Positions 25,133 to 62,957 are shown, numbered from the stretch's first letter. The stretch: DNA of 64,000 nt from a virus (IMGVR_UViG_2671180233_000001:1-64000), one strand, 5' to 3'. Translations and numbers: made by a program. The notes: a model not told the origin generated them from the sequence alone.

Positions 25133-25197
25133 TGGAACTGGCAACATTTTTCATTAAATCCATGGCTTAACCTATACCTAATTTAAACGTAGGGTAG
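25133..25197 (+). promoter_or_regulatory. Late promoter element 1 (TGGAAC-N29-TAACCT) with RBS hairpin
   Basis: TGGAAC at 25133, -10 at 25168, imperfect hairpin 25172-25197. Confidence 0.7.
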
Positions 25198-27260
25198 TGC
25201 CTTTTATGGCTATAGGTGATAGTGGTTTACAATATGATAACCAAGGCTTTCTGATTGGTGCGGTTCAGCAAAAAGTTGAAACTATTGATAAGAATATTCT
25301 GGAAATCTTAAAGCTGCTTAGGCATGACACAGTAGAACAAACACAGCGATTTAAGATTAGCCGGTTGCAGCGTGCGATGTATGAAGCTAACTCGGCTAAG
25401 AACATTGAAGATATTATAAAAGATGCAACACAAATATTAGAAAATCAGTCTAAACAACAGATCAAAGCCATTTCTAATATGGACTCATCTAAATCTGATC
25501 AAATTGATCCAGTCCGAAATAATACTAATCAAACTAAACCTGTGGAATCAACAAGAGACAATACTCAACAGTCTGATAGAAAAAGGGACAGTAACGGTCG
25601 TTTTGTTGCTGGTGATGTTCCTGAGAGTGATGAAACTGTAGACAAACGCAATCGTGATGATAAAGGGCGATTTGTCCCTGGCACCTCAACAACAATTTCA
25701 AAGTTTGGCGATATAGTTGGGAAATTTGGACAGGCAGTATCTGGATTAGGTACAGATGCACAAGGTTTTGATCCAACGGTTGATGCAATAAATGAACTAG
25801 GTACCGTTTTGTCGCCAGTTAAACGAATGGCTGGAATAGTATTTAAGCCTTTGACCGGTTTGGCGAAGATGCGTAAACGTTCTGAACCATTGCCGAAAGA
25901 GCAAACTGATCATAATAAGAAACAACTTAAGATTTTGCAGCGTATCGCAGATCGCACGGGCAATAATCAGGGTGGCTTATTATCCAAACTATTGGGATCG
26001 GGTGGTGGTTTACTTGGCGGATTGTTGGGTAAAGGAGGAAAAGTATTATCCAAGATATTAAAGTTTGGTAAAGGATTACCAATTGTTGGTGGATTGCTCA
26101 GTGCCATAAGTTTGATGGATTGGGGGGATAAATCTACTGAACAGAAAGGAGGTGCAATAGGCTCTATTGGGGGCGGTGTTGTTGGAGGTGTTTTAGGATC
26201 GGTTCTTGGTCCAGCCGGTACAATTGTAGGTGCTGGTGTTGGTGCTTGGATTGGTGACAAGCTGGGAACAACAGTTGCACCTTATTTCAAGAATTGGACT
26301 GATTCTTTGATCAAATCAGATTTAGGTCAAAAAATCGTATCTATCTGGGATGGATTTGTAGATACAATTTCTGGGTGGTTTGATAAGGCTTGGGGCGGAC
26401 TAAAATCTGGTGCTGGTGCAATTGGAGGTATGTTTAATGGTGCCTGGCAAACTGTTAAAAATATAGGCAATAAAGGACTGGATACCATTGGATTTAATGA
26501 CTATAAGGCTCTAGAGGGAGGAAATGCCCAAGAAAAGACCATGGCTTTATTGAGACAACATGAAGGTTTTCGTGAAAAAGCATATTGGGATGTGAATGCA
26601 TATCGAACTGGTTATGGCAGTGATACTGTAACAGATAAGAATGGAAATGTTCGTAAAGTTACTTCTAATACAAAGGTTTCTAGGGAAGATGCTGAGAGAG
26701 ACTTGTTAAGACGTTCAAAAATTTTTGCAGCCCAAGCAAGGCGTAAAGTTGGTGGTGAAAATTGGGATAAGCTACCAGATGATGCGAAAGCAGCTTTGAC
26801 TTCGGTTGCCTACAATTACGGAAGTTTGCCAAAAAGTGTTACTAAAGCTGTTCAAACTGGGGACTTAAAAAGAATTTCTAACTCTGTTCAATCTCTAGGT
26901 GCACATAATAAAGGCATTAATAGAAAAAGACGTAACCACGAGTCTTTATTGATTCATAATGCTAAAGATAGTTCTGTTTCTACATCTCAAGTTCAGCATG
27001 GTTTATTGGCATCGACAAATAAAACAAATACTCCATTTGTTGCAAAGGCAGATACTATGCTTGCGACTGCTAACCCAGTAAATTTGAATAACCATACAGC
27101 TAAAGCAAATACACCTAAGATTGAAACAGCCAAAACTAGATTAAATTCTACCGATCCACAAAAAGTATTGGTGGTAAATCAGTCAGATGGTAGTATTACC
27201 CAAAATTTAGGCGATCGTGCTTTAGCACACGCAATTACAGGGGGAATTGGGGAAAGATGA
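25197..27260 (+). CDS. Tape-measure-like virion protein with lysozyme domain
   Basis: Gly-rich TM-like tract; HEGFREKAYWD...TGYG and AYNYG lysozyme motifs; two RDxxGRF motifs. Confidence 0.75.
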   Translation: MPFMAIGDSGLQYDNQGFLIGAVQQKVETIDKNILEILKLLRHDTVEQTQRFKISRLQRAMYEANSAKNIEDIIKDATQILENQSKQQIKAISNMDSSKSDQIDPVRNNTNQTKPVESTRDNTQQSDRKRDSNGRFVAGDVPESDETVDKRNRDDKGRFVPGTSTTISKFGDIVGKFGQAVSGLGTDAQGFDPTVDAINELGTVLSPVKRMAGIVFKPLTGLAKMRKRSEPLPKEQTDHNKKQLKILQRIADRTGNNQGGLLSKLLGSGGGLLGGLLGKGGKVLSKILKFGKGLPIVGGLLSAISLMDWGDKSTEQKGGAIGSIGGGVVGGVLGSVLGPAGTIVGAGVGAWIGDKLGTTVAPYFKNWTDSLIKSDLGQKIVSIWDGFVDTISGWFDKAWGGLKSGAGAIGGMFNGAWQTVKNIGNKGLDTIGFNDYKALEGGNAQEKTMALLRQHEGFREKAYWDVNAYRTGYGSDTVTDKNGNVRKVTSNTKVSREDAERDLLRRSKIFAAQARRKVGGENWDKLPDDAKAALTSVAYNYGSLPKSVTKAVQTGDLKRISNSVQSLGAHNKGINRKRRNHESLLIHNAKDSSVSTSQVQHGLLASTNKTNTPFVAKADTMLATANPVNLNNHTAKANTPKIETAKTRLNSTDPQKVLVVNQSDGSITQNLGDRALAHAITGGIGER

Positions 27261-28174
27261 ATAAAAAAATACTTTTAGGTTTGATATTGGGTTGCTTAAA
27301 TTCATTTGCGGTTGGGAGCTCAAATGATATTGACCAGAGATTTTATAATAATATTTTATCAAATTTAGATAATCCATATAGAATCATTACAATCAAAAAA
27401 GAATCTTTAAACAATGTTGAAAGAACTGTAATAAATTATGCTATTCGGAACTTTAAAAAGGATTTTGTAGAGTGTAATGGTAAATCATATATTCGTGGTA
27501 TAGATAAGGTTTATTATGTTGTTGATTATAAGCCAACAATTTTATTTCGAACATTTCCTACAATCAATAAAGCTGATAAGTTGAATGGCGTGGTGTGGCG
27601 CGGGGATATATTAATATTCTTATCAGGTAATAAAGGAGAAGGAGTAGCCCAAGAAGTAAAAGCTACCGATCATCAGTCTTCTAAATGGCAAGATATGAAT
27701 AGACTTAGGTTGAGTCAATTTGGAAATTTTGAAGATGTGTATAGAGGAACCTTAGTTTTTTATAAAAATGAAATACGTACATATTATGGGGATGGGATAG
27801 GTAACACTAAATCTAATGATAATAATCAGTTGGTATGTTCAGATATTAATCAACTACTGATGCCTGAGCAAAAGCATGAAACTAATATTGAAAGTGAAAA
27901 AAAATTAAATTTGGATGGTAAAGTCAGCTGGAGAACTTACCCAAAAATAAGGCTTTCTCAGCCAGATTTATTAGGCGTAACAAACAGTAATGTGATAGTT
28001 CGTGTTGATGTTGACGTAAAGGGGCGAATAAGTGCAAAAATTCTTGAAACCAGTGGCGATGATCAGGTTGATAAAAAAATTGTAAAAGCTGTTGAGGCTG
28101 CAAAATTTAATAAATACACTGAAAATGGAGAGCCTGCAGCATTTTATATAGAATTACCATTTAATTTAAGTTAA
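27257..28174 (+). CDS. Exported protein with C-terminal TonB-C domain (moron)
   Basis: Signal peptide; V.VDVKGRI...ILETSG...VD.....AV..A.F...LPF motif. Confidence 0.75.
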   Translation: MNKKILLGLILGCLNSFAVGSSNDIDQRFYNNILSNLDNPYRIITIKKESLNNVERTVINYAIRNFKKDFVECNGKSYIRGIDKVYYVVDYKPTILFRTFPTINKADKLNGVVWRGDILIFLSGNKGEGVAQEVKATDHQSSKWQDMNRLRLSQFGNFEDVYRGTLVFYKNEIRTYYGDGIGNTKSNDNNQLVCSDINQLLMPEQKHETNIESEKKLNLDGKVSWRTYPKIRLSQPDLLGVTNSNVIVRVDVDVKGRISAKILETSGDDQVDKKIVKAVEAAKFNKYTENGEPAAFYIELPFNLS

Positions 28175-30420: not shown

Positions 30421-30488
30421 TGGAACTCAACACATTCAATCCAAATCAAAGCCTATAAAGTTAAAACTTCTTTAACGATATAGGCTTT
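30421..30488 (+). promoter_or_regulatory. Late promoter element 2 (TGGAAC-N29-TAAAGT) with RBS hairpin
   Basis: AAAGCCTATA (30448-30457) and TATAGGCTTT (30479-30488). Confidence 0.75.
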
Positions 30489-30492
30489 ATTA

Positions 30493-30969
30493 ATGTCTAA
30501 AAACACTGAAAATCAAATTCCAGATACCAGCTATGCTGTAATTGATATTATTGGAGAACCTTCAAATTTATCTGTACAGCATCTTGTTGCAATTTCAGAT
30601 AATGAACTCACCACAGAACAAGAAGATCAATTAAGAAATGGCCAGTCCATTGATAATGTTTTCAGCTATCCACCTGGTTACTACTACACAATCACACCTG
30701 ATTTAGAAGCACAGGATTTTGATCATGAGCGTTACTTTGAAACTCATCTGCATTTTCAGGATGGATCGGTACCAGTAGAAGGTATTAACGGTTTGACGAA
30801 TGAAGCCTTGCTTGAAGTTTTGATTCACCGGATGAATATTTTGGATGCTAAATTTCCGTGTAAAGAGAATAAAATTGCTTTGAAACATATGCAGTTGGCG
30901 TTATCAGCGTTCAAAGATCGTTCACTCTCACGTAAACTTCGAGGAGTAGAGGGTAAAAATGTCATCTAA
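30493..30969 (+). CDS. tad1: Tad1-like anti-Thoeris/anti-CBASS nucleotide sponge with acidic N-terminal extension
   Basis: HFQDG...GLTNEALLEVLIHR...FPCKEN.IAL.H...AL.....R...R..RGVEG resembles the Tad1 pattern. Confidence 0.75.
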   Translation: MSKNTENQIPDTSYAVIDIIGEPSNLSVQHLVAISDNELTTEQEDQLRNGQSIDNVFSYPPGYYYTITPDLEAQDFDHERYFETHLHFQDGSVPVEGINGLTNEALLEVLIHRMNILDAKFPCKENKIALKHMQLALSAFKDRSLSRKLRGVEGKNVI

Positions 30970-31166: not shown

Positions 31167-31234
31167 TGGAACTCAGCTCAAATTAACATTCCAATACAAA
31201 GCAAAATAGCCTCAATACATCGTTGGGGCTTTTT
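31167..31234 (+). promoter_or_regulatory. Late promoter element 3 (TGGAAC-N29-CAAAAT) with RBS hairpin
   Basis: AGCCTCAA/TTGGGGCT stem with a U-G pair. Confidence 0.75.
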
Positions 31235-31235
31235 C

Positions 31236-32156
31236 ATGTCTAAAGGACGAAAAACTAAAGTTTTACAATACAACCTACATAATCGGGGGCGTAAGCATAC
31301 AGGTGTGGACAGATCAAACATTGATTTTATGAGCATGATCAATTTGATTAATGCACCAAGCACTCAGGAAATGGTTAAGACAGGGCAATTGATCGGGTTC
31401 TATGGACATCAGATTCGACAACGTTTTGGTATGGTACCGCCTGAGAGCGTACCGATCAGTGGAAAGATGGTGCACCTTGAGCCTGCTTTCAGGACCATTG
31501 AAATCAAAGCTGATAAAGATGGTACTGTAAGTCATCGTGCGGAATTTTTGGAAAATGAATCTGGGGAATTTGCTCGCACGCAGTACCTTGCCAAAGTTGG
31601 CGGTTTTAGTACCGCTGTAAACTATCGCAAAACACCACCAAATAAACTTACACCAAGTGGCTTCTTCGGGTTTGATTATGTAACCCAGCCCAACTATGCC
31701 ACCAATGTTGGTGATGGTCAGTTATTTGATGGCCTATTTGTCCCTGAAGATCCGTCTAATAATCTGATTGCATGTTTTGATAGTGCAACTGATTTATCAG
31801 CACTAGAACCTTCACAGGCTTTAATTGCAAATATGCTTGAGCAGCAAATTATCAGCACTTTTGACAGTATCCATGCCCAAATTACCTTGGGGCAAATGAA
31901 CGAACAGGCACTTGATCAAATTGATGCATTGACTCAGCAAATCAGTTTGCATGAACGTAAAAAGCAATTACAGCAGCAACGTCAACAGGATCTTTACACA
32001 GGTATGGTTGGTGAAATTCGTACATTTGATAGTGCGCTTGCTGAAGCTGAACATTATTTAGAACAACTGGAAGGTAATTTAGTTCAGGACAATACAAAGC
32101 AGCGAGGAACTGGCCTTGTTAAAACTGTCCGTAAATTCTTAACATTCGGGGGATAA
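31236..32156 (+). CDS. Putative head-processing (prohead protease-like) protein
   Basis: GFYGH, GGFS and GFDYV..PNY fit the His/Ser/Asp layout of prohead proteases; inferred. Confidence 0.55.
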   Translation: MSKGRKTKVLQYNLHNRGRKHTGVDRSNIDFMSMINLINAPSTQEMVKTGQLIGFYGHQIRQRFGMVPPESVPISGKMVHLEPAFRTIEIKADKDGTVSHRAEFLENESGEFARTQYLAKVGGFSTAVNYRKTPPNKLTPSGFFGFDYVTQPNYATNVGDGQLFDGLFVPEDPSNNLIACFDSATDLSALEPSQALIANMLEQQIISTFDSIHAQITLGQMNEQALDQIDALTQQISLHERKKQLQQQRQQDLYTGMVGEIRTFDSALAEAEHYLEQLEGNLVQDNTKQRGTGLVKTVRKFLTFGG

Positions 32157-34846: not shown

Positions 34847-34909
34847 TGGAACATCTTAAAATTTAATCTAATTCAAATGATTACCCTATAAATCAAAGTT
34901 TATAGGGTA
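34847..34909 (+). promoter_or_regulatory. Late promoter element 4 (TGGAAC-N29-TACCCT) with RBS hairpin
   Basis: Perfect 11-bp stem TACCCTATAAA/TTTATAGGGTA. Confidence 0.8.
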
Positions 34910-34914
34910 TTTTT

Positions 34915-36453
34915 TTGGCTTTAAAACCACTTAAAGACATTCCTGAATGGTGGGAACTGTGCGAACGCTACAGATATGATATTTACGCCTTTGCTGTTGA
35001 AGCATTAGGCGTTGAACCTACATGGCAGCAAGAATTACTATTTAAATCAATTGCATTCGATGGATCCAGAACCAGTGTTGCGTCAGGTCACGGTACTGGT
35101 AAAACAGCTTCATCCGGTATAGTCGCTCTTTGGCATCTTTTATTTTTTGATGAAAGTATCATGTTGTTTACTGCACCACAGATCGGGCAGTTAAAAAAAC
35201 AAGTATGGAAAGAAATCAGTATCAATCTGGACCGTCTTAGACAAGGACCACTGGGTTGGCTTGCTGAGTATGTTGGTTATCAATCCGAATTAGTCTATAT
35301 AAAAGGCTATAAAGAAAAATGGTATGTTTTTGCCAAAACTGCCCCTAAACATCAACCAACTAATATTGCCGGTATGCACGGCGACAATTACATGGTTTGG
35401 ATTGATGAAGCCTGTGGCGTTGATGATGCCGTCATGGACGTGGTACTCGGTGCATTAACGCACGAGGACAATCGTGCAGTAATGACATCACAACCGGCTA
35501 AAAGTTCAGGTATGTTCTATGATACACACCATAAACTTAGCCATAGGGTTGGCGGTGACTGGATTTCATTGGTATTCAATGGTGAAGAGTCGCCACTGGT
35601 CAGTAAAAAATCTATCCGTGAACAATTACTCAAATATGGTTCCCGCGAAGATCCTCAATATCAAATTCGTGTACTGGGTAGATTCCCTGATCGACTTGAT
35701 GAATTTCTGGTTTCTATGCGCCAGGCAGAAGAATGTTATGTCGGTACCAGTATTTTCGATGATCATAAGTTCGGGTACGTTATAACTGTTGATGTGGGTG
35801 GTGGTGTAGGACGAGATGACAGTGTTATTGCCGTGTCCAAGGTTTTGGGGGAAGCACAGTGGGGAGATCGTGCGCGACGTGTTGAAGTCGTCGATATTCC
35901 ATTATGTAAAAACAAAGATAATATTGATGAATTGTTTGGGGTGATTAACGAATGTATCAACTATTATCCTAATGCATTACTTGTTGTTGATGACAATGGA
36001 GCTGGTAAGGGCCTAGGGCAAAAGCTTAAGAATAACGGCATTTTCTATATTCCGGTATATTGGGGCGGTGCATGTTTCAATAATGAAAATAGAAAGCAAT
36101 ATGTCAATAAACGTGCACAGGCTTATGTCTGTCTTGGCCGCGCTATATCTCAGGGTCGCTTCAAACTCAAAACCAAAAAGCATTCGGTCAAGTTTAAAGA
36201 ACAGATTATTCATATCCCATATGCTTTTGATGATCAAAGCCGATACAAAATCAAATCTAAAGAGGAAATGCGTAGAGAGGGTATTAAATCACCCGATTTG
36301 GGTGATGCATTCGCTTTCTTGTTCTTAGAAAATGTTCATTACACAGAAGCATATGACACAATTGACCAGATCGATGATACCCCTGAGGGGCAGGAACAGG
36401 CAGATAAAGCCAGTCGGTTTGCCAAATTAAGGGAGGCTGCCAAAGAAATGTGA
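34915..36453 (+). CDS. Terminase large subunit (PacB-like)
   Basis: SGHGTGKT Walker A, IDEA Walker B, VDVGGG...DDS and SPD.GDA nuclease motifs. Confidence 0.93.
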   Translation: MALKPLKDIPEWWELCERYRYDIYAFAVEALGVEPTWQQELLFKSIAFDGSRTSVASGHGTGKTASSGIVALWHLLFFDESIMLFTAPQIGQLKKQVWKEISINLDRLRQGPLGWLAEYVGYQSELVYIKGYKEKWYVFAKTAPKHQPTNIAGMHGDNYMVWIDEACGVDDAVMDVVLGALTHEDNRAVMTSQPAKSSGMFYDTHHKLSHRVGGDWISLVFNGEESPLVSKKSIREQLLKYGSREDPQYQIRVLGRFPDRLDEFLVSMRQAEECYVGTSIFDDHKFGYVITVDVGGGVGRDDSVIAVSKVLGEAQWGDRARRVEVVDIPLCKNKDNIDELFGVINECINYYPNALLVVDDNGAGKGLGQKLKNNGIFYIPVYWGGACFNNENRKQYVNKRAQAYVCLGRAISQGRFKLKTKKHSVKFKEQIIHIPYAFDDQSRYKIKSKEEMRREGIKSPDLGDAFAFLFLENVHYTEAYDTIDQIDDTPEGQEQADKASRFAKLREAAKEM

Positions 36454-36462
36454 TTTCTTCGT

Positions 36463-36527
36463 TGGAACCAACCACAAAATAACCATAGCATTATTATTAC
36501 CATGATATTTATTTTAAATATCTTGGT
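36463..36527 (+). promoter_or_regulatory. Late promoter element 5 (TGGAAC-N29-TACCAT) with RBS hairpin
   Basis: ACCATGATATTTA/TAAATATCTTGGT stem. Confidence 0.78.
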
Positions 36528-36537
36528 TTTGTATTAA

Positions 36538-37740
36538 ATGGCGACTCAATTTTATCTGACCAACGTGGGTAAACAAGCAGCGATTGATGCTGAAAATCTG
36601 AAAGTTACAATTGAACTTGCTTATATTGCTGTGGGTAGTGGTCGTTATGATGCTTCTCAAGCAGCAGAAAATCTACAATCTCTCACTAATCAATTGGCTA
36701 GATATAATTTAAGTGGTGGAAGTACACAGGGTGGAACACTAAATTTAATTGCCTCAATTGATTCTACAATTTCAGCAGATATCTATGAGATTGGTTTGCT
36801 TACAGAAGATGGAATTTTATTTGCAGTAGCGTCTACAACAGATATTGATCCATTATTTACACTTGTTAATGAGATTACAACCGTAGTCACGATCGGAATG
36901 TCACTTGCTGATGTAAATTCTGATTCGATTTCAATAGTAATTGATTCGGATGGTCAGATTGCTACGCAACTTATGAATGAACATCTTGCAGCGGATGATC
37001 CGCATCCACAATATTTTTTACGAGAAGAAAATAACCAAGTCAATGGTAACAATACTTTCAATGGCGAAAATACATTTAACAATAAAAACAGTTTTTCCAA
37101 AGAGACAAATACAACCGAGTTGAAGGTTTCCGAGAAATTGGAAGTAACTGGAGAATCAGAGCTCTCAGGAAAAACGACTATTTCAGGTGATGCCACTTTC
37201 ACTAAAAATGTAGTTGCAGAAAAGAATCTTACTGCTGAAACTTTTATTGCTACAGAATCTATAAGCATCGGTGCAGCCAATGGGGGAAGCGGTACTAAAG
37301 CCATTAATTTTAAACCCCATGGTAATGATACTGTTGCTGCAAGCATCTCAGCTGATACACAAGGAAATTTAAAACTTAATGCAACTGGTGAAGTGCAAAT
37401 AGGTCAAAGTTTAAAATCCAAAAATGGGTATACGGCCTTACCAAATGGATTTATTTTACAATGGGGTTTTGTGTCATTTAGTGAAAATGGATGGGTACGA
37501 GTACCTGGATCTTCGGATAGTAATGAACGGTATTATGAGGTTACATTTCCGTTAGCATTTCCTGAAAATATTATTAATGTTATTACTGGCTTAAATCTAA
37601 AAACACTCAATCAACAAAATGACCTAGGTTCACAAACCTACAATCCTAAATTAACAGGTGTTACTGTACTGACACAAAATATGTCTGCATCTGTAACAAG
37701 AGAATTTGATGGTATTTACTGGCAAGCAATAGGATATTAA
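36538..37740 (+). CDS. Tail fibre protein
   Basis: Tail-collar N-terminus (LT..G, EIGL...DG.LFAV), HLAADDPHPQY, and C-terminal NGY..LPNGFILQWG...YWQAIGY. Confidence 0.88.
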   Translation: MATQFYLTNVGKQAAIDAENLKVTIELAYIAVGSGRYDASQAAENLQSLTNQLARYNLSGGSTQGGTLNLIASIDSTISADIYEIGLLTEDGILFAVASTTDIDPLFTLVNEITTVVTIGMSLADVNSDSISIVIDSDGQIATQLMNEHLAADDPHPQYFLREENNQVNGNNTFNGENTFNNKNSFSKETNTTELKVSEKLEVTGESELSGKTTISGDATFTKNVVAEKNLTAETFIATESISIGAANGGSGTKAINFKPHGNDTVAASISADTQGNLKLNATGEVQIGQSLKSKNGYTALPNGFILQWGFVSFSENGWVRVPGSSDSNERYYEVTFPLAFPENIINVITGLNLKTLNQQNDLGSQTYNPKLTGVTVLTQNMSASVTREFDGIYWQAIGY

Positions 37741-39157: not shown

Positions 39158-39690
39158 TGCTTAACACAGCCGTTAATCGAGTTGCCAATGGTCGTAGACT
39201 TGTGGCTAGGCGTGTCGTAATGAATACACTTGCCAGTGTTCAGGCTCAGATTTGGCGTAAAAACATCATTTACGACAATGCAGATATTTCAGAACCTTTA
39301 GATCCATTATCGTTTGAAGCATTGGCTGTTTCTCAACAGGACGAGCCAAATTATAGCTATGAATATATTGGGATGGCCTATATTTTAGCGGATAAATTCA
39401 ATGGTGGTTATGTCCATAAAAATTTCTCAATGGTCAATCCTGATGATGTGGCGATATTTGCCCAAATTGAACCATATGATAGTTCTTATGAGCAAATATC
39501 AGATCAAATAACTAAAATTCCGGATTTCACCTTAAATGAAGGTGATCTACTGGGATTGTCTGTATATCAAGATTTTATGGTTTGGTTTGAAATTGTCAGC
39601 ATTACTGGCCAGACCATCATGGCAGATTTTGGAACCAAGTTCATTCTTAATCGACGTGATGATTTACAGTTAGACCCAATAAAAGAGTAG
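39157..39690 (+). CDS. Hypothetical virion protein
   Basis: TAATG-coupled late ORF. Confidence 0.6.
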   Translation: MLNTAVNRVANGRRLVARRVVMNTLASVQAQIWRKNIIYDNADISEPLDPLSFEALAVSQQDEPNYSYEYIGMAYILADKFNGGYVHKNFSMVNPDDVAIFAQIEPYDSSYEQISDQITKIPDFTLNEGDLLGLSVYQDFMVWFEIVSITGQTIMADFGTKFILNRRDDLQLDPIKE

Positions 39691-39702
39691 GAAATTATTA
39701 TT

Positions 39703-41176: not shown

Positions 41177-41184
41177 TAAAAGAC

Positions 41185-44618: not shown

Positions 44619-44622
44619 TCCA

Positions 44623-52515: not shown

Positions 52516-52580
52516 TGGAACCTTGCGCAATGTACCTCTAAAGCATATTGCAAACTAGCACTATGAAATAATTATGAGTT
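52516..52580 (+). promoter_or_regulatory. Late promoter element 9 (TGGAAC-N29-CAAACT); hairpin weak or absent
   Basis: -10 at 52551. Confidence 0.7.
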
Positions 52581-52587
52581 CAGAACA

Positions 52588-53244
52588 ATGCGTCAGACCA
52601 ATCCAGTTTTATTGTCTCAACTACGCCAAGATTATGAGTCTATTCAAGCGATAGGTGCGCCTTTACTCGCTTCACAAGGAATGTTGGTTTTTGAAGATAG
52701 TAGTATTTCATTGATGCGATATCACATCAAATCATCAATGCGTCCAATTGTCAGCAATGGTGATCCAGCAGAGGTGCAGTATGCTGGTGGACTTACTGGT
52801 ATTGTTGCCGGTGTGCCCAATACAAAATATACCGGTAATATTCAGATTATCGCAACTGAGTCAGGCTATGAACAGGAACTTGCTGAATATGTAGTAAATA
52901 CACTTGGCGGGATCATTGAACAAGCCACCTATTATGATGGTCGTATGGACAGCTATACTCGTGCATATAGTCTTCATAATTTAGCTTTGCGGTTTGAACC
53001 AGGTGAATTTGATTCCGAAAGCCGCTCGCAAGTTATGACTATATCTTGTCCTTGTGATTATAACTATTTTGGACTATATGCTGATATTGGAAGTAATGGT
53101 ACTGTGTCTGTGGGGCAAAAAACTGCTGCTGCCACAAGTTTCTCAAATACTGTTCAATCAACAATCAGAGCAACTCAGGCTGCTTTATCATCTGTCGGTC
53201 AAATTGCTAATGCAGCCAATACATTAGGTTCATTATTTGGGTAG
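52588..53244 (+). CDS. Tail tube-like protein
   Basis: D.ESRSQV....C.YNYFG pattern; own late promoter. Confidence 0.55.
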   Translation: MRQTNPVLLSQLRQDYESIQAIGAPLLASQGMLVFEDSSISLMRYHIKSSMRPIVSNGDPAEVQYAGGLTGIVAGVPNTKYTGNIQIIATESGYEQELAEYVVNTLGGIIEQATYYDGRMDSYTRAYSLHNLALRFEPGEFDSESRSQVMTISCPCDYNYFGLYADIGSNGTVSVGQKTAAATSFSNTVQSTIRATQAALSSVGQIANAANTLGSLFG

Positions 53245-54609: not shown

Positions 54610-54674
54610 TGGAACTCTCAATAAAAGGTATATAACAAATCAATCAAAATAGGATTAATAAATCATTTTTTGGT
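54610..54674 (+). promoter_or_regulatory. Late promoter element 10 (TGGAAC-N29-CAAAAT) with hairpin
   Basis: ATCAAAA...GATT/AATC...TTTTGGT. Confidence 0.72.
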
Positions 54675-54683
54675 AGTTAGAAC

Positions 54684-54959
54684 ATGATCCGGACAAAAGT
54701 ATTAGGTGAAGCGGCAGGAATTCAGTGGTCAGGCTTACAGGATCGGACTGAAACAAATAGCGTGACAGGCTTAGGTGCACCATTAATTGTCGGTCAATTC
54801 CGCCGTGGTCGTATCGATAAGCCAATAACAATTACAAACGGCAATATTAAGGCCGAGCTAGGCTATGACCCGACCAACAAAGACTATATCGCCGTGCAAT
54901 CTATGCTTGATACCGGAGTGCCTAGTGTGCAGGTGTTACGGATTGGAAACCACAATTAG
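54684..54959 (+). CDS. 91-aa protein resembling a tail-sheath N-terminal domain
   Basis: VGQF.RG..DKP.TIT......LG......Y......L..G....VLRI. Confidence 0.6.
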   Translation: MIRTKVLGEAAGIQWSGLQDRTETNSVTGLGAPLIVGQFRRGRIDKPITITNGNIKAELGYDPTNKDYIAVQSMLDTGVPSVQVLRIGNHN

Positions 54960-55483: not shown

Positions 55484-55548
55484 TGGAACAACTCAAAAAT
55501 TGTACAATAAGTCTAAGCCAAAATAACCATTAATTGGTTTTTTGGCTT
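55484..55548 (+). promoter_or_regulatory. Late promoter element 11 (TGGAAC-N29-CAAAAT) with hairpin
   Basis: AAGCCAAAATAACCA/TGGTTTTTTGGCTT. Confidence 0.78.
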
Positions 55549-55553
55549 TTTTT

Positions 55554-57167
55554 ATGGCAGCGCAGGATATTTTAGCGATTTTACTGGGTGCTGATTCAAG
55601 CGGCATGTCCAACCTTCAACAAAATGAATTAAGTAATGCAAGTCAAGAATCTATGGCTCGTATTCAAGATTCACTAAATCCATTTTCGCTTGGAACTTTT
55701 GAAACTAAAGACAATAAAAAACGCACTCGCATGGAGATCTATAGCAAATGGGAGAAAATGCTTAGATTTGCACCTATTTCGGAAGCAATGGGGATCCACG
55801 TTACAGCTGCTTTAGGTGGTGATGCAACGACCAGTCAACAGGTTTTTATCACACCGGCCCAACGTTTACGGGGAGGTGGGGGCACAATCAATAAAGCTCA
55901 ATTGGAAAAATTAGAAAAACGTATAAAGCCCATGGAAAAGCTGATTAACAAACATATTGTTAAAATATGCCGGGATGCAATAGGATTTGGCGATGGTTAC
56001 ACACGAGTTTACGGTACCAAAGGCATGGGTATTGTTGATCTAATGGCTAATGAATTCACCTATCCACCACTTATTCAAGCCTATGAACAGGTCAATAAAA
56101 CTGTAGCGTACCAGGCATTAGATTATAAAAATTGGCAAAAAGTTGTCTCAAAATTAAATATGATCCAGATGCTTCGTTTGAAAATGCCTCGAATTTCTCA
56201 TGTGCCACAATACCATGCATCAGATAGTTTTTTTAATATCAAGACATTACAAGTTGATAATATTAATGAAGCACCTATTGTACCAGCGCCAGTAGGCGGC
56301 TCATATTGTGCTGATGTAGAACCATTTTACGATAATATTATATTGGCATTATCGACAATGAACAGTCAGCAGATCGCAGATGCTGTGAATCAGGTTTTTT
56401 TGTCGGTTAATATGTCTGCAATGCCACCGGCACAACGTGATGCATATAAAAATGGCCTTAATACCATGATGCGTGACCATGAGAAGTTCGTGCGTGATGC
56501 ATTAGAGGGTGGCGATTCAATCTGGAATACAAAATATCATTTTCTACCTACAAATAATGAGAAACAAATTTTAAATACATTGGGTGATTTAAAGGGACAA
56601 CGTACATCACCGATCAATACTGAAACTTTAATGATTAATATTCGCCTGCTGATGGGTGGACTTGGCCTTGATCCATCCATGGTAGGCTGGGCAGATATGC
56701 TGGCTGGTGGTTTAGGTGATGGTTCTGCATTTCATACATCAGCACAAATTATGCGCCGTTCGATGATGCAACGTCAGGCAACTATGGATTTTGTAAATCA
56801 GATTTTAGCTTTGGACTGGGGATATGCTTACAATGAAGAGTTCAATGAAACTAACGATTATCCATGGAAGATTGAATATTACAGTGATCAATCTGCGGCA
56901 ATGACCGAAGCAATTACAAATCAACAGCAGCGAATGAATAATTTGATGCTTAAAGCTCAAGCAATTGCATCATTAAAAGACTTGGGCCTAAGTGAAGAAA
57001 CGATCACTCGTCTTTTAGAGCGTGACGGTGGCATGGATTACGATGAAGCTATTAAATTGGCAAAAGATTTAGTACAGCAGAGAGAACAGGAACAACTCGC
57101 TGGTAGTAATAATTCAGATGATCTTCCGACTGATGATCAAAATATTGAAGAAGAGGAAGGTATTTGA
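55554..57167 (+). CDS. Portal protein (P1 Prt-like)
   Basis: ~540 aa helical; LG.D.SM.G.AD.L.GGLG.G motif; acidic tail. Confidence 0.65.
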   Translation: MAAQDILAILLGADSSGMSNLQQNELSNASQESMARIQDSLNPFSLGTFETKDNKKRTRMEIYSKWEKMLRFAPISEAMGIHVTAALGGDATTSQQVFITPAQRLRGGGGTINKAQLEKLEKRIKPMEKLINKHIVKICRDAIGFGDGYTRVYGTKGMGIVDLMANEFTYPPLIQAYEQVNKTVAYQALDYKNWQKVVSKLNMIQMLRLKMPRISHVPQYHASDSFFNIKTLQVDNINEAPIVPAPVGGSYCADVEPFYDNIILALSTMNSQQIADAVNQVFLSVNMSAMPPAQRDAYKNGLNTMMRDHEKFVRDALEGGDSIWNTKYHFLPTNNEKQILNTLGDLKGQRTSPINTETLMINIRLLMGGLGLDPSMVGWADMLAGGLGDGSAFHTSAQIMRRSMMQRQATMDFVNQILALDWGYAYNEEFNETNDYPWKIEYYSDQSAAMTEAITNQQQRMNNLMLKAQAIASLKDLGLSEETITRLLERDGGMDYDEAIKLAKDLVQQREQEQLAGSNNSDDLPTDDQNIEEEEGI

Positions 57168-57798: not shown

Positions 57799-57862
57799 TG
57801 GAACCCAGCTAAAAACACAATTATTAAATCTTAAATAATATGTCTATGAACAATTTAGGCAT
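57799..57862 (+). promoter_or_regulatory. Late promoter element 12 (TGGAAC-N29-AATAAT) with RBS hairpin
   Basis: ATGTCTA (57840-57846) and TAGGCAT (57856-57862). Confidence 0.72.
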
Positions 57863-57867
57863 TTTTT

Positions 57868-60800
57868 ATGATCCGGACAAAAGTATTAGGTGAAGCGGCA
57901 GGAATTCAGTGGTCAGGCTTACAGGATCGAACTGAAACAAATAGCGTGACCGGCTTGGGTGCACCATTGATTGTCGGTCAATTCCGCCGTGGTCGTATCG
58001 ATAAGCCGATGACTATTACAAATAGCAATATCAAGGCCGAACTAGGCTATGACCCGACTAATAAAGATTATATCGCTGTCCAGTCTATGCTTGATACCGG
58101 AGTGCCTAGTGTGCAGGTGTTACGGATTTCTGATTTGTGGGATGTGCAATATACACTTATCTCAACAGGGGAAGTTATACGGATATATCATGCAGGGAAT
58201 ATCCCTGCGAATGCATACCGTGGTCGTAAGGCGACTGTTGTTGAGCTAAGTGCAGAAGAACAAGCTGAACTTACGGAAGATGAATTAGAGCAATACCTAT
58301 GGGAGATGTCTTTCCCAATAATTGATGATCGAAAAGATCTAATTATTAATAAAAGTGTTCGCCACATTGGTGAATGGGCATTCGCTAATTGGCAGAATGT
58401 TGGCACCGTTACGTTATTAAGTGGTGGCATGGTAGACGAATATGCATTCGTGAACATGGATGGCGTAATAGATATATCAGTAGATAATGTTAATACTCTA
58501 GGTAAAAGCGCATTTGGGGCAGTAACTGCAATCAACGTTACAATTACAAATACCTTAATGATCGATGAGGGTGCTTTTGGTGGCTCTACGATTGAAAATC
58601 TCTCGATTGGTAAAGATTCACTAATTAAAACTATTGTTGGAATTAGAGCTTTTTCTGGTTCTAAAATTATGAATCTTAAAATTAAATCTAGCGTGGATAC
58701 TCTTAAGTCGGACTCTTTTTCAGCTACAGGGATTGGATCAATATCTATTGATGAAGGACTGCGAGTAATTGAAGGGCAAACAAAGATTATTATCTCCGAT
58801 ACACAGTTTTCAATTCTGGGAGGGGCTTTTGCTGGTGTATCTAAACTTAATGAAAATTGGGAAAAAGTATCAACTACTAATCAAGAGTATGATCCTGTTA
58901 CAGAACAATGGATTAGAACTTTTAATTACTTTGATTTAACAATTCCTTCGAGTGTTGAATATATTGGTGTTAGTGCATTCCCTTATAGTCCGATCGGTAA
59001 CTTAAAAATTATTGGGAATGAAAAATTAATTTTAGATGTAAGCTGTTTTGCCGCTGGTAATTTTAAGTCAATCGTAATTCTGCAAGTAGACCGTATTGAA
59101 CATGATGCTTTTGGAGCTGCTCATAATTATTTAGAAAGTTTCGTAATTGGTCATGCAAATGTTGTAGACGGTGCGCAATTCGCCAGTGGTAATGGTTGGG
59201 TTGTTAATTCGATATTTGATATTAACGTAGATGATCTAAGTGGTAATGCCTTACCGAAAGCTCACAACAGCTTAAAACATTTACGAATTAAAACAAAAGG
59301 TTCTATCAAAGGAGGAACTGTAAATTATCTAAGAGGATTAGAAAGCCTGGTTATTGAAGCGGAAGGAGTAATTGAACCTGGCGGTATATTAATGACCCGT
59401 TCCGATACGGCGACAATAACAGCCAAAGGGATTGAAAACGGTGGTATTGAAAGTCTAATAACTCGTATGGTGGATTACCCTAATCTAGATGCAAGAGGTT
59501 GGTCAGGAAATAGTGCAAAATGCTGGGGAACCGTAGAACTAAATGTAGATTACATTGGTGATGGTGGCTGTGTAAACTCTAGCTTTTATGAAATAAACTT
59601 AAACCCTAATAATCCAGATAAAAAAGACAAATTAATCAGTATTGGAAACGGTGCATTTATTTATGGTGGTGTATTTAAAGGAATTGATTGGGAGGTGGAT
59701 ACGGTTGGTAGTGGGGCATTCATAACCGCTTCAATGGGGAATACTAGACTTAAGGTAAATGAATCTATTGGAAACGCAGCATTTCTAGGTACTTACTACA
59801 TGGGAGATTCTCTTTCTATATCGGCACCTACCTTACCAGAAAGATGTATTGCAATGTTCAATGGCGGAAATTTGTCTAGTGATAAATTAGATATAATAAT
59901 ATCTGCGGAAACGATTGAAAATCAATCTTATGTCTGGAGAAGTTTTAGTAAAACAATATTAGATACCGTTGAAATCAAAGACGGTGCTTTTATTGTTCAA
60001 AATTTCCGTAACGGATTAGAGTTTAGTAATCGATTAGAATATATCGGTAAAGGTGCATTTAACACTGCATATATTTACCAACCTGACGGAAATTTTAATA
60101 TTCCAAAATCAACTCGAAAAATTGATGAAGCTGCTTTTGTAACTTGTAACTTTTATAAAGAAAATAATGATGGGCAGCCTATTGAAATCGTAATTGATGG
60201 TACTCAGCTTGAAATTGAAAATAGTGCTTTCGTCAGTAGTAATCCACCTGTCGGTTCTAAAGTAAAGATTATTGCTGATGTTAAACGTGTTGCCAGTCAT
60301 GCATTTTGTAATATGTATGGGATTACTGAATTTGATTTGGGTGAAGGTTGGGAAACAATTGAACCAACAACGTTCGCAGGAATACAAAATGTGTCCAAAT
60401 GGCATATTCCTGCGAACGTTAAAGTGATTAAATCAGGTGCTTTTCAGAATAATACTGGAATGACTGAGTTAACTTTTGATAAAGGGGTCGAGATAATCGA
60501 GGCAGCTTTCCTTGCTGCTGGGCCTGATCAAGGCCCTAATAAACTGGGTATTCGGCAAGTTATTTTCCCTGATTCATTAAAAGAATTTTCAGCTTCTTTT
60601 GAGGCTTCTGCACTTGAAACAGTTGTTTTACCTCGCAGCCTAGAGAAATTCTATTGGGGTGCTTATACTTCAGTAGGTGAGATTTATAGCACAATGTATA
60701 GTTTAGCACCTAGTACATTAGATACTCTATTTCTAAGAGATGGAGTGAAGCCAACTCTAATGACCATTGATGTTGCTTCCATCTCAATTAAACCGAATGT

Positions 60801-61638: not shown

Positions 61639-62882
61639 TGGGAATAATCATGACTACTAATTTAAATACTGATCTTGAAAATGATCATATTCTTCATGAA
61701 CTGGCTCTCATTATCCCGGCACATAATGAAGAAAATGATTTACCAAAAACATTGCAATCAATATCAAAACAAACAGTAAAGCCGGGTTTAGTTGTGGTGG
61801 TTGCTGATAATTGTTCTGACCGAACAGTTGAGATAGCAAAGGCTTTTAATGTTACAGTTGTTGAAACTATTGACAACAAACATAAAAAAGCAGGAGCCTT
61901 AAACTATGGTTGGAATATGGTTAACGATTATGAATATGTTGCAACGTTAGATGCAGATACGATTTTAGAGGAAGAAGATTTTATTGAGAAATTACTAGCC
62001 CAATTAAAATCAGATCCTAATGTTGCCGGAATCATGCCACGATATACTGTCCAACACAGCAATCTACTTGAGAGAATGCAAATGTTAGAGTTTGCATCTA
62101 CAACACTTGAGTTACTTCGTCGAGGATGTCATACCCATACTTTAGGAGGTCAATTTTCTTTATTCAGAAATGAGATCTTAAAAGAGATTAAACTCTCTTA
62201 TGGTGTATGGTCACATGACTCTGTTGTTGAAGATATGGAGTTAACTGTGCGTTTATGGAAGCGTGGTTATCGCTGTGCCGTGTCTAGTGATACAAGGGCA
62301 GCTGCAGGAGGGATGTTTACATTAATGGGACTATGGTCTCAACGACGTAAATGGGAGGAAGGTATATTACGGATTCTGTTTGAAAATAAAATAGAGAAGT
62401 TCTTATACTTACCTTATCTTCGAACTGTGTCTTCTGTTTTTGATCTATGGATGCGGTTTATTCTATTATCAATGTGTTTTGTTAATTTTAATTATATTTG
62501 GTTATGGCTAATTACAATCATAACTTCAATTGATTATAAAGCTATTTATAAAGCACCTGATATTGAAAACCGTTGGAAGAATATGTTGTTGAGTACATGC
62601 TTTTTTGAGTTTTATACTTTTCATATTCTGTGTGTTAAGTTAGTTTCTTTATTTAGAATCATTGAGAGAAAGACTGATGATTTATGGAAGAAGCAACACA
62701 TTGCCGAGAAGAGTAAATCAAAATCGCTACCAGTAGCATATTGTGTTCTGGTTCTACTTCTCATGTTGGTTTTTGCAAGCGTTATCACGATACCAGCGCT
62801 TATTTTACAGGTTAGCGTTGTTGTACTGGTCATTCGTTTTATATATCGTTTAACCAGATCTGATAGCGGTTACATGCCATAA
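61638..62882 (+). CDS. Membrane GT2 processive glycosyltransferase (PgaC/HAS-like)
   Basis: IPAHNEE, DNCSD, KAGALN, DAD, VED and QRRKW motifs; C-terminal TM helices. Confidence 0.9.
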   Translation: MGIIMTTNLNTDLENDHILHELALIIPAHNEENDLPKTLQSISKQTVKPGLVVVVADNCSDRTVEIAKAFNVTVVETIDNKHKKAGALNYGWNMVNDYEYVATLDADTILEEEDFIEKLLAQLKSDPNVAGIMPRYTVQHSNLLERMQMLEFASTTLELLRRGCHTHTLGGQFSLFRNEILKEIKLSYGVWSHDSVVEDMELTVRLWKRGYRCAVSSDTRAAAGGMFTLMGLWSQRRKWEEGILRILFENKIEKFLYLPYLRTVSSVFDLWMRFILLSMCFVNFNYIWLWLITIITSIDYKAIYKAPDIENRWKNMLLSTCFFEFYTFHILCVKLVSLFRIIERKTDDLWKKQHIAEKSKSKSLPVAYCVLVLLLMLVFASVITIPALILQVSVVVLVIRFIYRLTRSDSGYMP

Positions 62883-62889
62883 TAACACT

Positions 62890-62957
62890 TGGAACCAAAC
62901 TCATATTCATATTTAAATCACTGTAACAATAGTTTCAAGTAATACTTTGAGGCTATT
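62890..62957 (+). promoter_or_regulatory. Late promoter element 13 (TGGAAC-N29-AACAAT) with RBS hairpin
   Basis: AATAGTTTCAA/TTGAGGCTATT with two U-G pairs over GAGG. Confidence 0.78.

What the first reader, a model, noticed from the sequence alone, without database searches (positions are those of the whole stretch)
25168..62957. Phage-wide translational lock: late -10 boxes double as the 5' arm of RBS-occluding hairpins
Seen: in 12 of 13 elements an inverted repeat starts on or just before the -10 hexamer and its 3' arm covers the G-containing region just before the start codon. Examples: terminase TACCCTATAAA/TTTATAGGGTA, capsid CTTATGTAAAGA/TCTTTACATAGG, Tad1 AAAGCCTATA/TATAGGCTTT, portal AAGCCAAAA/TTTTGGCTT, DarA AATAGTTTCAA/TTGAGGCTATT. 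The stems are unrelated in sequence, so structure is what recurs. Several mismatches are U(5')-G(3') wobbles (elements 3, 6, 10, 12, 13), which favours plus-strand RNA over DNA cruciforms. Known: a few T4 genes (e, soc, I-TevI) are controlled this way. Inference: read-through RNA from upstream morons or early genes is untranslatable, while RNA started at the late promoter lacks most of the 5' arm and is translated. Used systematically, this could let the prophage carry expressed cargo throughout its structural region.
Basis: partly seen in the sequence, partly recalled or inferred. Interest (0 to 1): 0.88.

Follow-up and report, generated by a model that had tools for sequence, protein, structure and literature searches.

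The report
Phage late promoters inside leader hairpins
A prophage of an Acinetobacter-type bacterium starts each block of late (virion and lysis) genes with its own special promoter, and in about half of them the promoter core is also one arm of an RNA hairpin that would hide the ribosome-binding site only on RNA arriving from upstream; phage T4 does this at a few genes, here it recurs across a phage family, but it is inferred from sequence and not measured.

Summary
The quoted inverted repeats are real. They sit in a repeated unit: TGGAAC, a fixed 29-nt spacer, a -10-like hexamer (A at position 2, T at 6), a 17-31 nt leader, then the start codon. The window has 14 such units, all on the + strand (17 motif hits against 3.1 expected).

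Thirteen related prophage regions and phage vB_AbaM_ABMM1 share the layout. One relative uses TGGTAC instead.

"12 of 13" is too generous. A loose pairing test passes 12 of 14 units, but also about 60% of controls. Hairpins clearly above chance occur in 7 of 14 window units, and in 48 of 80 across seven prophages, against 8-13% of controls.

Their 5' arms end just before the start site predicted from the -10. Modelled ribosome-site accessibility is 0.27 in long RNA and 0.55 in promoter-started RNA.

About a third of the strong hairpins are followed by a T-run, so they also look like terminators.

No RNA data could be obtained, so the start sites are predicted, not mapped.

Verdict: partly confirmed; a new variant of a known kind.

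The parts
25133..25199 (+). Late unit 1, before the 687-aa lysin-like gene. TGGAAC 25133-25138, -10 TAACCT 25168-25173, predicted +1 at 25180, GTG at 25197. Weak hairpin only (-4.7 kcal/mol).
   Evidence: PHROG 6922 and endolysin domains
30421..30495 (+). Late unit 2, before the Tad1-like gene. -10 TAAAGT 30456-30461, predicted +1 at 30468. Strong hairpin: outer arms 30448-30457 and 30479-30488, MFE -16.7. The 5' arm lies wholly upstream of +1. No T-run.
   Evidence: (swap rank 0.000); Tad1 match to PDB 8kbb, E 6.4e-10
31167..31238 (+). Late unit 3, before a 306-aa protein (PHROG 4727). -10 CAAAAT 31202-31207, predicted +1 at 31214. Hairpin 31204-31213 with 31225-31234, MFE -11.9, followed by TTTTT: terminator-like.
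   Evidence: flagged by the terminator scan; 8 orthologous leaders keep the stem
34847..34917 (+). Late unit 4, before the large terminase (TTG start at 34915). -10 TACCCT 34882-34887, predicted +1 at 34894. Perfect 11-bp stem 34882-34892 with 34899-34909, MFE -16.2, followed by seven T: terminator-like.
36463..36540 (+). Late unit 5, before a 400-aa tail-fibre-like gene. -10 TACCAT 36498-36503, predicted +1 at 36510. Hairpin 36495-36509 with 36517-36531, MFE -10.2.
   Evidence: (swap rank 0.015)
39630..39705 (+). Late unit 6. It lies inside the 3' end of ORF 39157-39690 and precedes a 102-aa gene. -10 TACAGT 39665-39670. No hairpin above chance (-3.2). The orthologous site in the closest relative keeps TACAGT behind TGGTAC.
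41107..41187 (+). Late unit 7, before the putative major capsid gene (590 aa). -10 AAAGAT 41142-41147, predicted +1 at 41154. 12-bp stem 41135-41146 with 41165-41176, MFE -15.9. SD unpaired probability is 0.01 in long RNA and 0.53 in short RNA.
   Evidence: capsid leaders of relatives
44551..44682 (+). Late unit 8, the sheath operon. -10 CACAAT 44586-44591, predicted +1 at 44598. The hairpin 44582-44595 with 44605-44618 covers the GGTGG before a 19-codon ORF (44623-44682). The stop of that ORF overlaps the sheath ATG at 44679.
   Evidence: an 18-codon ORF in the same place in L045
47761..47835 (+). Late unit 9, before the Hdf-like gene. -10 CAAAAT 47796-47801, predicted +1 at 47808. Marginal hairpin: -8.7 with the ATG at 47833, -4.7 with the GTG at 47830. 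A separate terminator, 47734-47749, lies just upstream.
52516..52590 (+). Late unit 10, before the tail tube gene. -10 CAAACT 52551-52556, predicted +1 at 52563. No SD-covering hairpin.
54610..54686 (+). Late unit 11, before a 91-aa gene. -10 CAAAAT 54645-54650, predicted +1 at 54657. Weak hairpin (-6.2).
55484..55556 (+). Late unit 12, before the portal gene (ATG at 55554). -10 CAAAAT 55519-55524, predicted +1 at 55531. Hairpin 55515-55529 with 55535-55548, MFE -15.6, followed by seven T: terminator-like.
   Evidence: (swap rank 0.000)
57799..57870 (+). Late unit 13, before a 1256-aa gene. -10 AATAAT 57834-57839, predicted +1 at 57846. Weak hairpin (-5.6) followed by TTTTTT.
62890..62965 (+). 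Late unit 14, before the DarA-like gene. -10 AACAAT 62925-62930, predicted +1 at 62937. Stem core 62928-62938 with 62947-62957, with two U-G pairs; MFE -12.4 on the plus strand and -6.6 on the minus strand.
   Evidence: (DarA_N, E 2.8e-29)

Best explanation
The window holds the late region of a temperate myovirus prophage of the vB_AbaM_ABMM1 type. The whole prophage is about 68 kb.

Promoter (shown as a sequence pattern; its function is inferred). Each late transcription unit starts with a phage-specific, activator-type promoter: TGGAAC at about -47..-42, a fixed 29-nt spacer with no -35 consensus, an extended -10 (t-G-n-y-A-m-m-a-T), and A at +1 seven bases after the -10.

Hairpin (shown by folding against controls). 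In about half of the units, the DNA of the -10 and the stretch down to +1 is also the 5' arm of an RNA hairpin of -10 to -17 kcal/mol. The 3' arm covers the Shine-Dalgarno region of the first ORF.

Mechanism (inferred). RNA that starts at the late promoter begins at the 3' edge of that arm, so it cannot form the hairpin and its ribosome site is open. RNA that enters from upstream, from lysogen-expressed cargo genes, early genes or leaky read-through, carries both arms and the ribosome site is closed. Where a U-tract follows, as in about one third of the strong hairpins, the same hairpin should also terminate that RNA just before the start codon.

The unit would therefore be a conditional insulator: late genes are read and translated only from their own activator-dependent promoter.
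For: Motif:
- 17 hits, all on the + strand, against 3.13 +/- 1.81 expected.
- A stricter form is found 16 times in the 68.5-kb prophage, all on the coding strand, and 27 times in the other 3.72 Mb on both strands.

-10 and start-site signature:
- A at +31 in 72 of 83 and T at +35 in 68 of 83.
- The best -10 offset is exactly +31 in 64 of 83.
- In columns not used for selection: G at -14 in 52 of 122, A at -9 in 90, A at -8 in 92, A at -6 in 81, pyrimidine at -1 in 89 (G in 4), A at +1 in 89.
- The region where a -35-paired -10 would sit, +14..+24 after TGGAAC, carries little information.

Phage-specific recognition:
- The closest relative (L045, capsid 75% identical) has TGGTAC at the same spacing at four gene-proximal sites, among 5 pattern hits. 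Three correspond to window units 39630, 41107 and 44551; the fourth precedes a gene that starts like the one behind 47761.
- ABMM1 has the TGGAAC layout 61-73 nt before 8 annotated CDS starts, among 13 plus-strand hits.

Hairpins above chance:
- Strict hairpins in 48 of 80, against 13.0% of swapped-arm controls, 8.4% of shuffled-arm controls and 6 of 28 internal genes. P = 8e-23 and Fisher P = 8e-4.
- Duplex energy -10.07 against -5.68 kcal/mol; 34 of 80 rank below 0.05.
- 62 of 122 are strict in 13 prophage regions.

Position relative to the predicted start:
- SD unpaired probability is 0.265 in long RNA, 0.550 in start-site RNA and 0.399 with swapped arms.
- The rise happens between -15 and +1 and then levels off.
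- Short leaders match ordinary internal genes, 0.55 against 0.54. Long leaders are more closed than internal genes in long context, 0.28 against 0.39, P 0.002.
- The capsid gene needs heavy translation, yet its SD is 0.01 unpaired in long RNA. That is hard to square with the hairpin being part of the late mRNA.

RNA level: plus-strand folds are more stable than minus-strand folds in 51 against 27 of 80, P 0.001.

Terminator shape: a run of five T within 16 nt of the start in 23 of 62 strong units, 4 of 60 weak units and 0 of 28 internal genes (P 5e-5).

Precedent: T4 e, soc, 49 and I-TevI (PMC3014915, section 29).
Against: - No transcript 5' ends, 3' ends or translation data. Every start site is a prediction from a motif.
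- 6 to 7 of the 14 window units have no hairpin above chance. The loose criterion is met by about 60% of controls.
- Formal covariation is thin. In 8 orthologous leaders, 1 of 8 pairs shows a double change and the covariation term is -0.16. Seven capsid leaders of one sub-lineage share no common structure.
- Relatives are not independent. G214, G136 and G199 have near-identical leaders, so the counts overstate the number of separate events.
- With leaders of only 17-31 nt, any hairpin anchored on the -10 must end near the SD, so SD coverage could be a by-product of geometry.
- Of the 14 long-leader sites, six have a strong or -10-anchored hairpin that leaves the assigned SD uncovered. Four of them stay unexplained: L046 18256, the site at 75267 beyond the window end, G214 1059 and G199 5789. 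The other two are 44551, explained by its leader ORF, and an intragenic motif hit at 67559.
- 34 of 122 units already have a T-run terminator just upstream of TGGAAC. Strong hairpins are not significantly commoner where that is missing (odds ratio 0.58, P 0.23).
- No activator or sigma factor was identified.
Confidence: 0.5

Rival explanations
1. The hairpins are mainly punctuation for the upstream unit: intrinsic terminators or 3'-end stabilising stem-loops. They overlap the next promoter only to save space. Covering the ribosome site is a geometric by-product of the very short leaders and is not itself selected.
For: - 23 of 62 strong hairpins carry a run of five or more T right after the stem.
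- Two window hairpins are picked up by the terminator scan (31208-31230 and 34882-34909).
- Several strong hairpins anchored on the -10 do not cover the SD.
- Leaders are only 17-31 nt long.
Against: - 39 of 62 strong hairpins have no T-run.
- In capsid leaders with 30-39 nt untranslated regions the 3' arm still ends next to the SD, with loops of up to about 27 nt.
- The end of the 3' arm follows the start codon: slope 0.65, r 0.68. The end of the folded segment may inflate this.
- In unit 44551 the arm covers the SD-like GGTGG of a conserved leader ORF.
- 34 of 122 units already have a separate terminator-like T-run (five or more T) in front of TGGAAC.
Confidence: 0.2
2. The start site lies upstream of the 5' arm, because TGGAAC serves as a -35-like element of a phage sigma factor or because the A-N3-T motif is not a -10. 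The hairpin is then part of every late mRNA. It would act as a 5' stabiliser, as an attenuator that needs an antiterminator, or as a brake on translation released by a phage factor.
For: - No start site has been mapped.
- GGAAC resembles the -35 of ECF-type sigma promoters (recalled, not tested).
- Hairpin plus T-run directly behind a promoter is the layout of antitermination-controlled units such as lambda PR'-tR' (recalled).
Against: - No conserved -10 lies 14-24 nt after TGGAAC. The A/T signature, the G at -14, the pyrimidine at -1 and the A at +1 all sit 29 nt downstream.
- Only 27 of 122 units have a T-run.
- A -16 kcal/mol hairpin over the SD of the capsid, portal and terminase genes would choke the most heavily translated late messages.
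- Pfam found no sigma-factor domain, and PHROG names showed no sigma factor or antiterminator, in the early-region proteins scanned.
Confidence: 0.13
3. The inverted repeats act in DNA, as cruciforms or as protein-binding dyads over the -10. Or they are chance products of A+T-rich intergenic sequence.
For: - The weak half of the units cannot be told from controls.
- G-U counts on the two strands are nearly equal (95 of 971 against 81 of 961).
Against: - Strong hairpins exceed all three controls about 3- to 7-fold.
- The stems share no sequence, so one protein cannot read them.
- Plus-strand RNA folds are more stable, P 0.001.
- About 9% of stem pairs are G-U, which do not pair in DNA (73 of 775 in strong stems).
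Confidence: 0.07

Closest known systems
Phage T4 genes e (lysozyme), soc, 49 and I-TevI: the ribosome site is sequestered in early and middle transcripts and freed in transcripts from a late promoter that lies in the 5' arm
   Same: The promoter core lies in or on the 5' strand of a helix whose 3' strand holds the SD or AUG. Long RNA is closed and promoter-started RNA is open (PMC3014915, section 29, passages read).
   Different: - T4 does this at a handful of genes that sit in early regions of a virulent phage. Its late promoter is a bare TATAAATA read by gp55.
- Here it recurs at about half of roughly 14-18 late units of a temperate phage, and in relatives in 13 prophage regions.
- The promoter here has an upstream TGGAAC element.
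- A third of the strong hairpins add a U-tract.
- Nothing here has been tested experimentally.
Phage P1 late promoters, activated by Lpa
   Same: - Temperate myovirus with DarA/Hdf-type genes.
- Many scattered late operons, each with its own activator-dependent promoter that has a -10 but no -35 (annotation of AF234172; PMC8198154 passages).
- P1's LPsit shows the same promoter-in-hairpin layout: -21.2 kcal/mol against -5.9 for shuffled arms, with 0 of 200 shuffles as stable.
   Different: - P1's specific element is a 9-bp box at -22, four bases from the -10. Here the specific element is TGGAAC at -47..-42 and the -22 region is not conserved.
- No Lpa relative in this genome by tblastn (best E 1.6, on another contig).
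- In P1 only 1 of 11 annotated late promoters has a clearly significant hairpin.
Intrinsic (Rho-independent) terminators
   Same: Units 31167, 34847 and 55484, and 23 of 62 strong hairpins overall, have a G+C-containing stem, a short loop and a T-run, often with an A-tract in front.
   Different: - They lie downstream of a promoter's -10 and abut a start codon.
- The predicted start site falls inside them.
- Most strong hairpins (39 of 62) lack the T-run.
Activator-dependent late promoters of Mu (C), P2/P4 (Ogr/Delta) and lambda Q antitermination (recalled, not tested here)
   Same: Late genes are switched on by one phage factor acting at a short specific DNA element near a promoter that lacks a -35.
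   Different: - The known sites are dyads or lie between -35 and -10. Here the element is an asymmetric hexamer at -47..-42.
- Lambda has one late promoter followed by a distant terminator. Here there are more than 14 promoters.

Membership tests
T4-type translational control by a late promoter inside an RBS-sequestering hairpin | The SD or start codon is paired in the long transcript | tested here: met
   By folding only. 7 of 14 window units and 48 of 80 family units pass the strict test, against 8-13% of controls. Long-RNA SD unpaired probability is 0.265.
T4-type translational control by a late promoter inside an RBS-sequestering hairpin | The late transcript starts inside or after the 5' arm | tested here: inconclusive
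   The predicted +1 (7 nt after a conserved A-11/T-7 hexamer; A at +1 in 89 of 122) falls at the 3' edge of the arms, and accessibility levels off at +1. No 5' ends were mapped and no RNA run was listed.
T4-type translational control by a late promoter inside an RBS-sequestering hairpin | Upstream-initiated transcripts enter the gene and are poorly translated | not testable with these tools
   Needs RNA-seq or Ribo-seq of lysogens, or reporter fusions.
Intrinsic terminator | G+C-containing stem, loop of 3-8 nt, then a U-tract | tested here: met
   Met for a subset only. 31208-31230 and 34882-34909 are flagged by the scan. A run of five T is within 16 nt of the start in 23 of 62 strong hairpins. 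Not met by 30421, 36463, 41107 and 62890.
P1 Lpa-type late promoter | A conserved 9-bp box centred at -22, four bases upstream of the -10 | tested here: not met
   The positions between TGGAAC and the -10 carry little information. P1's boxes read AAGTGACTn or AAGTTACTT, and nothing like them recurs here.
P1 Lpa-type late promoter | A phage-encoded Lpa homologue | tested here: not met
   tblastn of P1 Lpa against the whole genome gives a best E of 1.6, outside the prophage contig.
Sigma-70 extended -10 promoter | TGn directly upstream of a TAnnnT hexamer, with a start 6-8 nt downstream at a purine after a pyrimidine | tested here: met
   As a statistical tendency: T at -15 in 57 of 122, G at -14 in 52, A at +1 in 89, pyrimidine at -1 in 89. 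The polymerase form that reads it is unknown.

The most novel reading that the evidence does not exclude
A whole family of temperate Acinetobacter/Alkanindiges myoviruses builds its late genes from modular units. A previously undescribed activator-type promoter (TGGAAC, or TGGTAC in a specificity variant, 29 nt upstream of an extended -10) is fused to a conditional hairpin. That hairpin terminates and translationally silences any RNA not started at that promoter. This would let late operons be interleaved with lysogen-expressed cargo (BLUF, GIY-YIG, DUF4365 and glycosyltransferase genes) without leak.
Probability: 0.4. Interest if true: 0.75.

Novelty: new variant of a known kind. Interest (0 to 1): 0.6.

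Why it matters
If the predicted start sites hold, this is the first case I could find in which the T4 'late promoter inside an RBS hairpin' device is used as a general building rule of a temperate phage, not at a few exceptional genes. My literature searches turned up only the T4 cases.

It would explain how prophages of this type keep lysis and virion genes silent while carrying expressed cargo between them.

It also gives a compact natural part (promoter, conditional terminator and RBS lock in about 75 bp) with many sequence-diverse versions.

The promoter motif on its own lets late operons of this phage group be annotated from sequence. The TGGAAC-to-TGGTAC switch offers a direct handle on the unknown activator.

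An isolated, active member of the group exists (vB_AbaM_ABMM1), so all of this can be tested.

Tried and rejected
Searches that gave nothing useful:
- Megablast of 10 kb against the phage collection: no match.
- Capsid search in viral contigs: no relative.
- RNA evidence: none was listed for window 34800-44700, so read laying was never used and no start site could be mapped.
- Rfam at gathering scores and tRNA scan: nothing.

Readings considered and dropped:
- Sigma-54 type promoter: rejected by eye from the leader sequences. There is no GC doublet at the required spacing.
- ECF-type promoter with TGGAAC as the -35 and a -10 some 16-17 nt later: no conserved positions there.
- Q-type antitermination: only 27 of 122 units have a T-run, and no regulator was found by family names.

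Analyses that did not help:
- The simple sigma-70 and terminator scans are not enriched overall: 67 and 72 promoter-like sites against about 77 expected, and 14 and 9 terminator-like sites against about 11.5 expected.
- One consensus structure for capsid leaders across sub-lineages: RNAalifold found none. The stems differ by lineage, so no covariance model was built.
- Looking for the activator by conservation failed. The early genes of the window have no match in the 40-50 kb held for each of six relatives or in the first 50 kb of ABMM1, apart from one hit of the 21693 protein in G032.
- Association of strong hairpins with a missing upstream terminator: not significant.

Papers: supplementary files were not consulted. 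For PMC3014915 and PMC8198154 I saw passages only; for all other papers, search listings only.

Rows dropped before counts:
- One search kept TGGAAC sites followed at 40-85 nt by an ORF of at least 70 aa and not inside it, plus 5 manual inclusions. Window sites before 25000 were dropped.
- Searches dropped 3 of 83 with predicted leaders outside 15-45 nt.
- required A-11 and T-7.
- Four of the 12 loci repeated regions already held and were left out. L043 and L045 were analysed apart.

Full report
WHAT IS THERE. The window lies in a 3.79-Mb genome. It carries a myovirus prophage of about 68 kb. Early genes run on the + strand at about 11.8-23.4 kb: methylases, a RusA-like protein and an HTH protein. 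Late genes run from 25.1 kb past the window end to about 76.5 kb.

Late genes identified:
- a lysin-like protein and a Tad1-like protein (PDB 8kbb, E 6.4e-10);
- large terminase, tail fibre, a putative major capsid protein and sheath;
- baseplate, tube and portal proteins, and Hdf-like and DarA-like proteins.

Between them sit likely cargo genes: DUF4365, GIY-YIG, a BLUF sensor on the minus strand, and a GtrB-like glycosyltransferase.

The only relatives in the phage collection are Acinetobacter phage vB_AbaM_ABMM1 (capsid 49.8% identical) and, distantly, Xanthomonas phage Rb1. Capsid relatives occur in 20 of 301 sampled genomes of the family, the window's own genome included. They also occur in named Acinetobacter and Alkanindiges records.

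THE REPEATED UNIT. The pattern TGGAAC-N30-A-N3-T occurs 17 times, always on the + strand, against 3.13 +/- 1.81 expected. Fourteen hits lie 58-122 nt before a gene start. Four more motif hits followed by a gene lie beyond the window end. A stricter form of the motif is found 16 times in the prophage and 27 times in the remaining 3.72 Mb.

In 83 TGGAAC leaders from seven prophage regions, two positions stand out at a fixed distance: A at +31 (72 of 83) and T at +35 (68 of 83). These are the two positions that define a -10 hexamer.

In 122 units from 13 regions, aligned on that hexamer, the columns that were not selected for show:
- T at -15 in 57 and G at -14 in 52, an extended -10;
- A at -9, -8 and -6 in 90, 92 and 81;
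- a pyrimidine at -1 in 89, with G in only 4;
- A at +1 in 89.

Nothing is conserved where a -10 paired with TGGAAC as a -35 would lie. I therefore read the unit as an activator-type promoter. TGGAAC sits at -47..-42, there is an extended -10, and the start is seven bases after the -10. This is inference from sequence; no RNA run could be listed.

Two further observations support a phage-specific reader of the hexamer. ABMM1 has the layout 61-73 nt before 8 annotated genes. The closest relative (L045, capsid 75% identical) has TGGTAC at the same spacing at four gene-proximal sites.

THE HAIRPINS. To ask whether they exceed chance, I folded each leader from 10 nt before the -10 to the start codon. 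I compared it with three controls: the same leader carrying the promoter-side 21 nt of a unit from another genome, the same leader with shuffled promoter-side sequence, and leaders of 28 genes without a promoter.

The loose criterion behind '12 of 13' is met by 68 of 80 units. It is also met by 60-61% of both artificial controls and by 16 of 28 internal genes. The strict criterion (MFE <= -8 kcal/mol and at least 4 SD-window bases paired to bases upstream of +1) is met by 48 of 80. Controls meet it at 13.0%, 8.4% and 6 of 28 (P values).

In the window the strict set is 30421, 31167, 34847, 36463, 41107, 55484 and 62890, which is 7 of 14. Unit 47761 is marginal. The others are weak or lack such a hairpin. 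Arm-to-leader duplex energy is -10.07 kcal/mol for native pairs and -5.68 for swapped pairs. In the larger set of 13 regions, 62 of 122 are strict. Several genomes are close kin, so these counts overstate the number of independent events.

POSITION RELATIVE TO THE PREDICTED START. I truncated the 5' end step by step. Mean SD accessibility rises from 0.26 to 0.55 between -15 and +1 and does not rise further. The pairing partners of the ribosome site are therefore the -10 and the bases down to +1.

Promoter-started leaders are as open as ordinary internal genes (0.55 against 0.54). Long RNAs are more closed than internal genes in long context (0.28 against 0.39, P 0.002). An SD below 0.15 unpaired is seen in 26 of 83 late leaders and 1 of 28 internal genes. 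For the capsid gene the SD is 0.01 unpaired in long RNA and 0.53 in short RNA.

Plus-strand folds are more stable than minus-strand folds (51 against 27 of 80, P 0.001). About 9% of pairs in strong stems are G-U. Both points favour RNA over DNA.

CONSERVATION. The stems differ between units and between lineages, yet a hairpin is found in the same place. Capsid leaders of 15 prophage regions fold at -4.9 to -17.7 kcal/mol with lineage-specific stems. One pair of relatives differs by CGTG/CACG against CATG/CATG. Eight orthologous leaders of the 306-aa gene keep one stem, with one double change and four C-G to U-G changes. Formal covariation support is therefore thin. The argument rests on the swap controls.

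TERMINATOR SHAPE. A run of at least five T lies within 16 nt of the start codon in 23 of 62 strong units, 4 of 60 weak units and 0 of 28 internal genes. In the window this applies to 31167, 34847 and 55484, and the scan tool flags the first two. These hairpins should stop incoming transcription as well. The other strong ones (30421, 36463, 41107, 62890) have no U-tract and could only act on translation.

AN APPARENT EXCEPTION. Unit 44551 (the sheath operon) has an 81-nt leader. Its hairpin sits on the -10, far from the sheath gene's SD. It does cover the GGTGG before a 19-codon ORF, and the stop of that ORF overlaps the sheath ATG. L045 has an 18-codon ORF in the same place. A few other long-leader units have -10-anchored hairpins that cover no SD. 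This keeps the 'by-product of geometry' rival alive.

COMPARISON WITH KNOWN SYSTEMS. The logic is that of T4 e, soc, 49 and I-TevI (PMC3014915, section 29). The genome style (scattered late operons, DarA and Hdf genes) recalls P1, but the promoter is not of the P1 type. P1 has a -22 box next to the -10, and no Lpa relative is present here. Among P1's 11 annotated late promoters only LPsit shows a clearly significant promoter-in-hairpin (-21.2 against -5.9 kcal/mol); LP23, LPpac and LPdar are suggestive. Searches for TGGAAC late promoters, or for systematic use of such hairpins in prophages, found nothing beyond T4.

VERDICT. The best reading is a conditional insulator, an RBS lock that is also a terminator in a subset of units, built into a new activator-type late promoter. 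My confidence is about 0.5, because the start sites are predicted and not mapped.

Noticed in passing
L045: 2499, 9923, 12982, 19236 (Acinetobacter sp. MB5 record): The closest relative (capsid 75% identical) has TGGTAC instead of TGGAAC, at the same 29-nt spacing from the -10, at four gene-proximal sites. Three correspond to window units 39630, 41107 and 44551. This looks like a switch in the specificity of the unknown late activator.
   Followed up: partly
window 44623-44682: A 19-codon ORF lies between the late promoter and the sheath gene. Its TGA overlaps the sheath ATG (ATGA), which suggests translational coupling. L045 has an 18-codon ORF in the same place.
   Followed up: partly
window 34300-34854 (minus strand): A BLUF (blue-light sensor) domain gene sits inside the structural region. 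Its start codon overlaps the TGGAAC of the terminase promoter (34847-34852), so its own promoter must lie within the terminase leader or gene.
   Followed up: no
window 54684-54959 and 57868-58143: The 91-aa ORF repeats the N-terminal ~88 residues of the 1256-aa protein (246 of 276 nt and 85 of 92 residues identical). Both copies follow a late promoter.
   Followed up: partly
L054 46576-46626 (phage P1, LPsit, minus strand): In P1 the -10 of late promoter LPsit pairs with the SD region of pmgC: -21.2 kcal/mol against -5.9 for shuffled arms, with 0 of 200 shuffles as stable. LP23, LPpac and LPdar show weaker versions. I found no mention of this in the papers searched.
   Followed up: partly
window 23789-25069 (minus strand): A gene for an exonuclease VII large-subunit-like protein (XseA) lies between the early and late blocks of the prophage. 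It may be phage cargo or a host gene; this was not resolved.
   Followed up: no
beyond the window end at about 72759 (L040/L041), and G214 1059 and G199 5789 (in L028 and L034): A long (~86 nt) late leader shares the conserved stretch ACAGGCTAGACCGTACATCGAAA across distant relatives. It has a -10-anchored hairpin that does not cover the SD. It may be a different regulatory RNA.
   Followed up: no
window 30493-30969, 47809-48357, 62963-64000: The anti-defence-type genes (Tad1-like, Hdf-like, DarA-like) each have their own late promoter unit. They would therefore be made late and, for DarA and Hdf, probably packaged as in P1.
   Followed up: no
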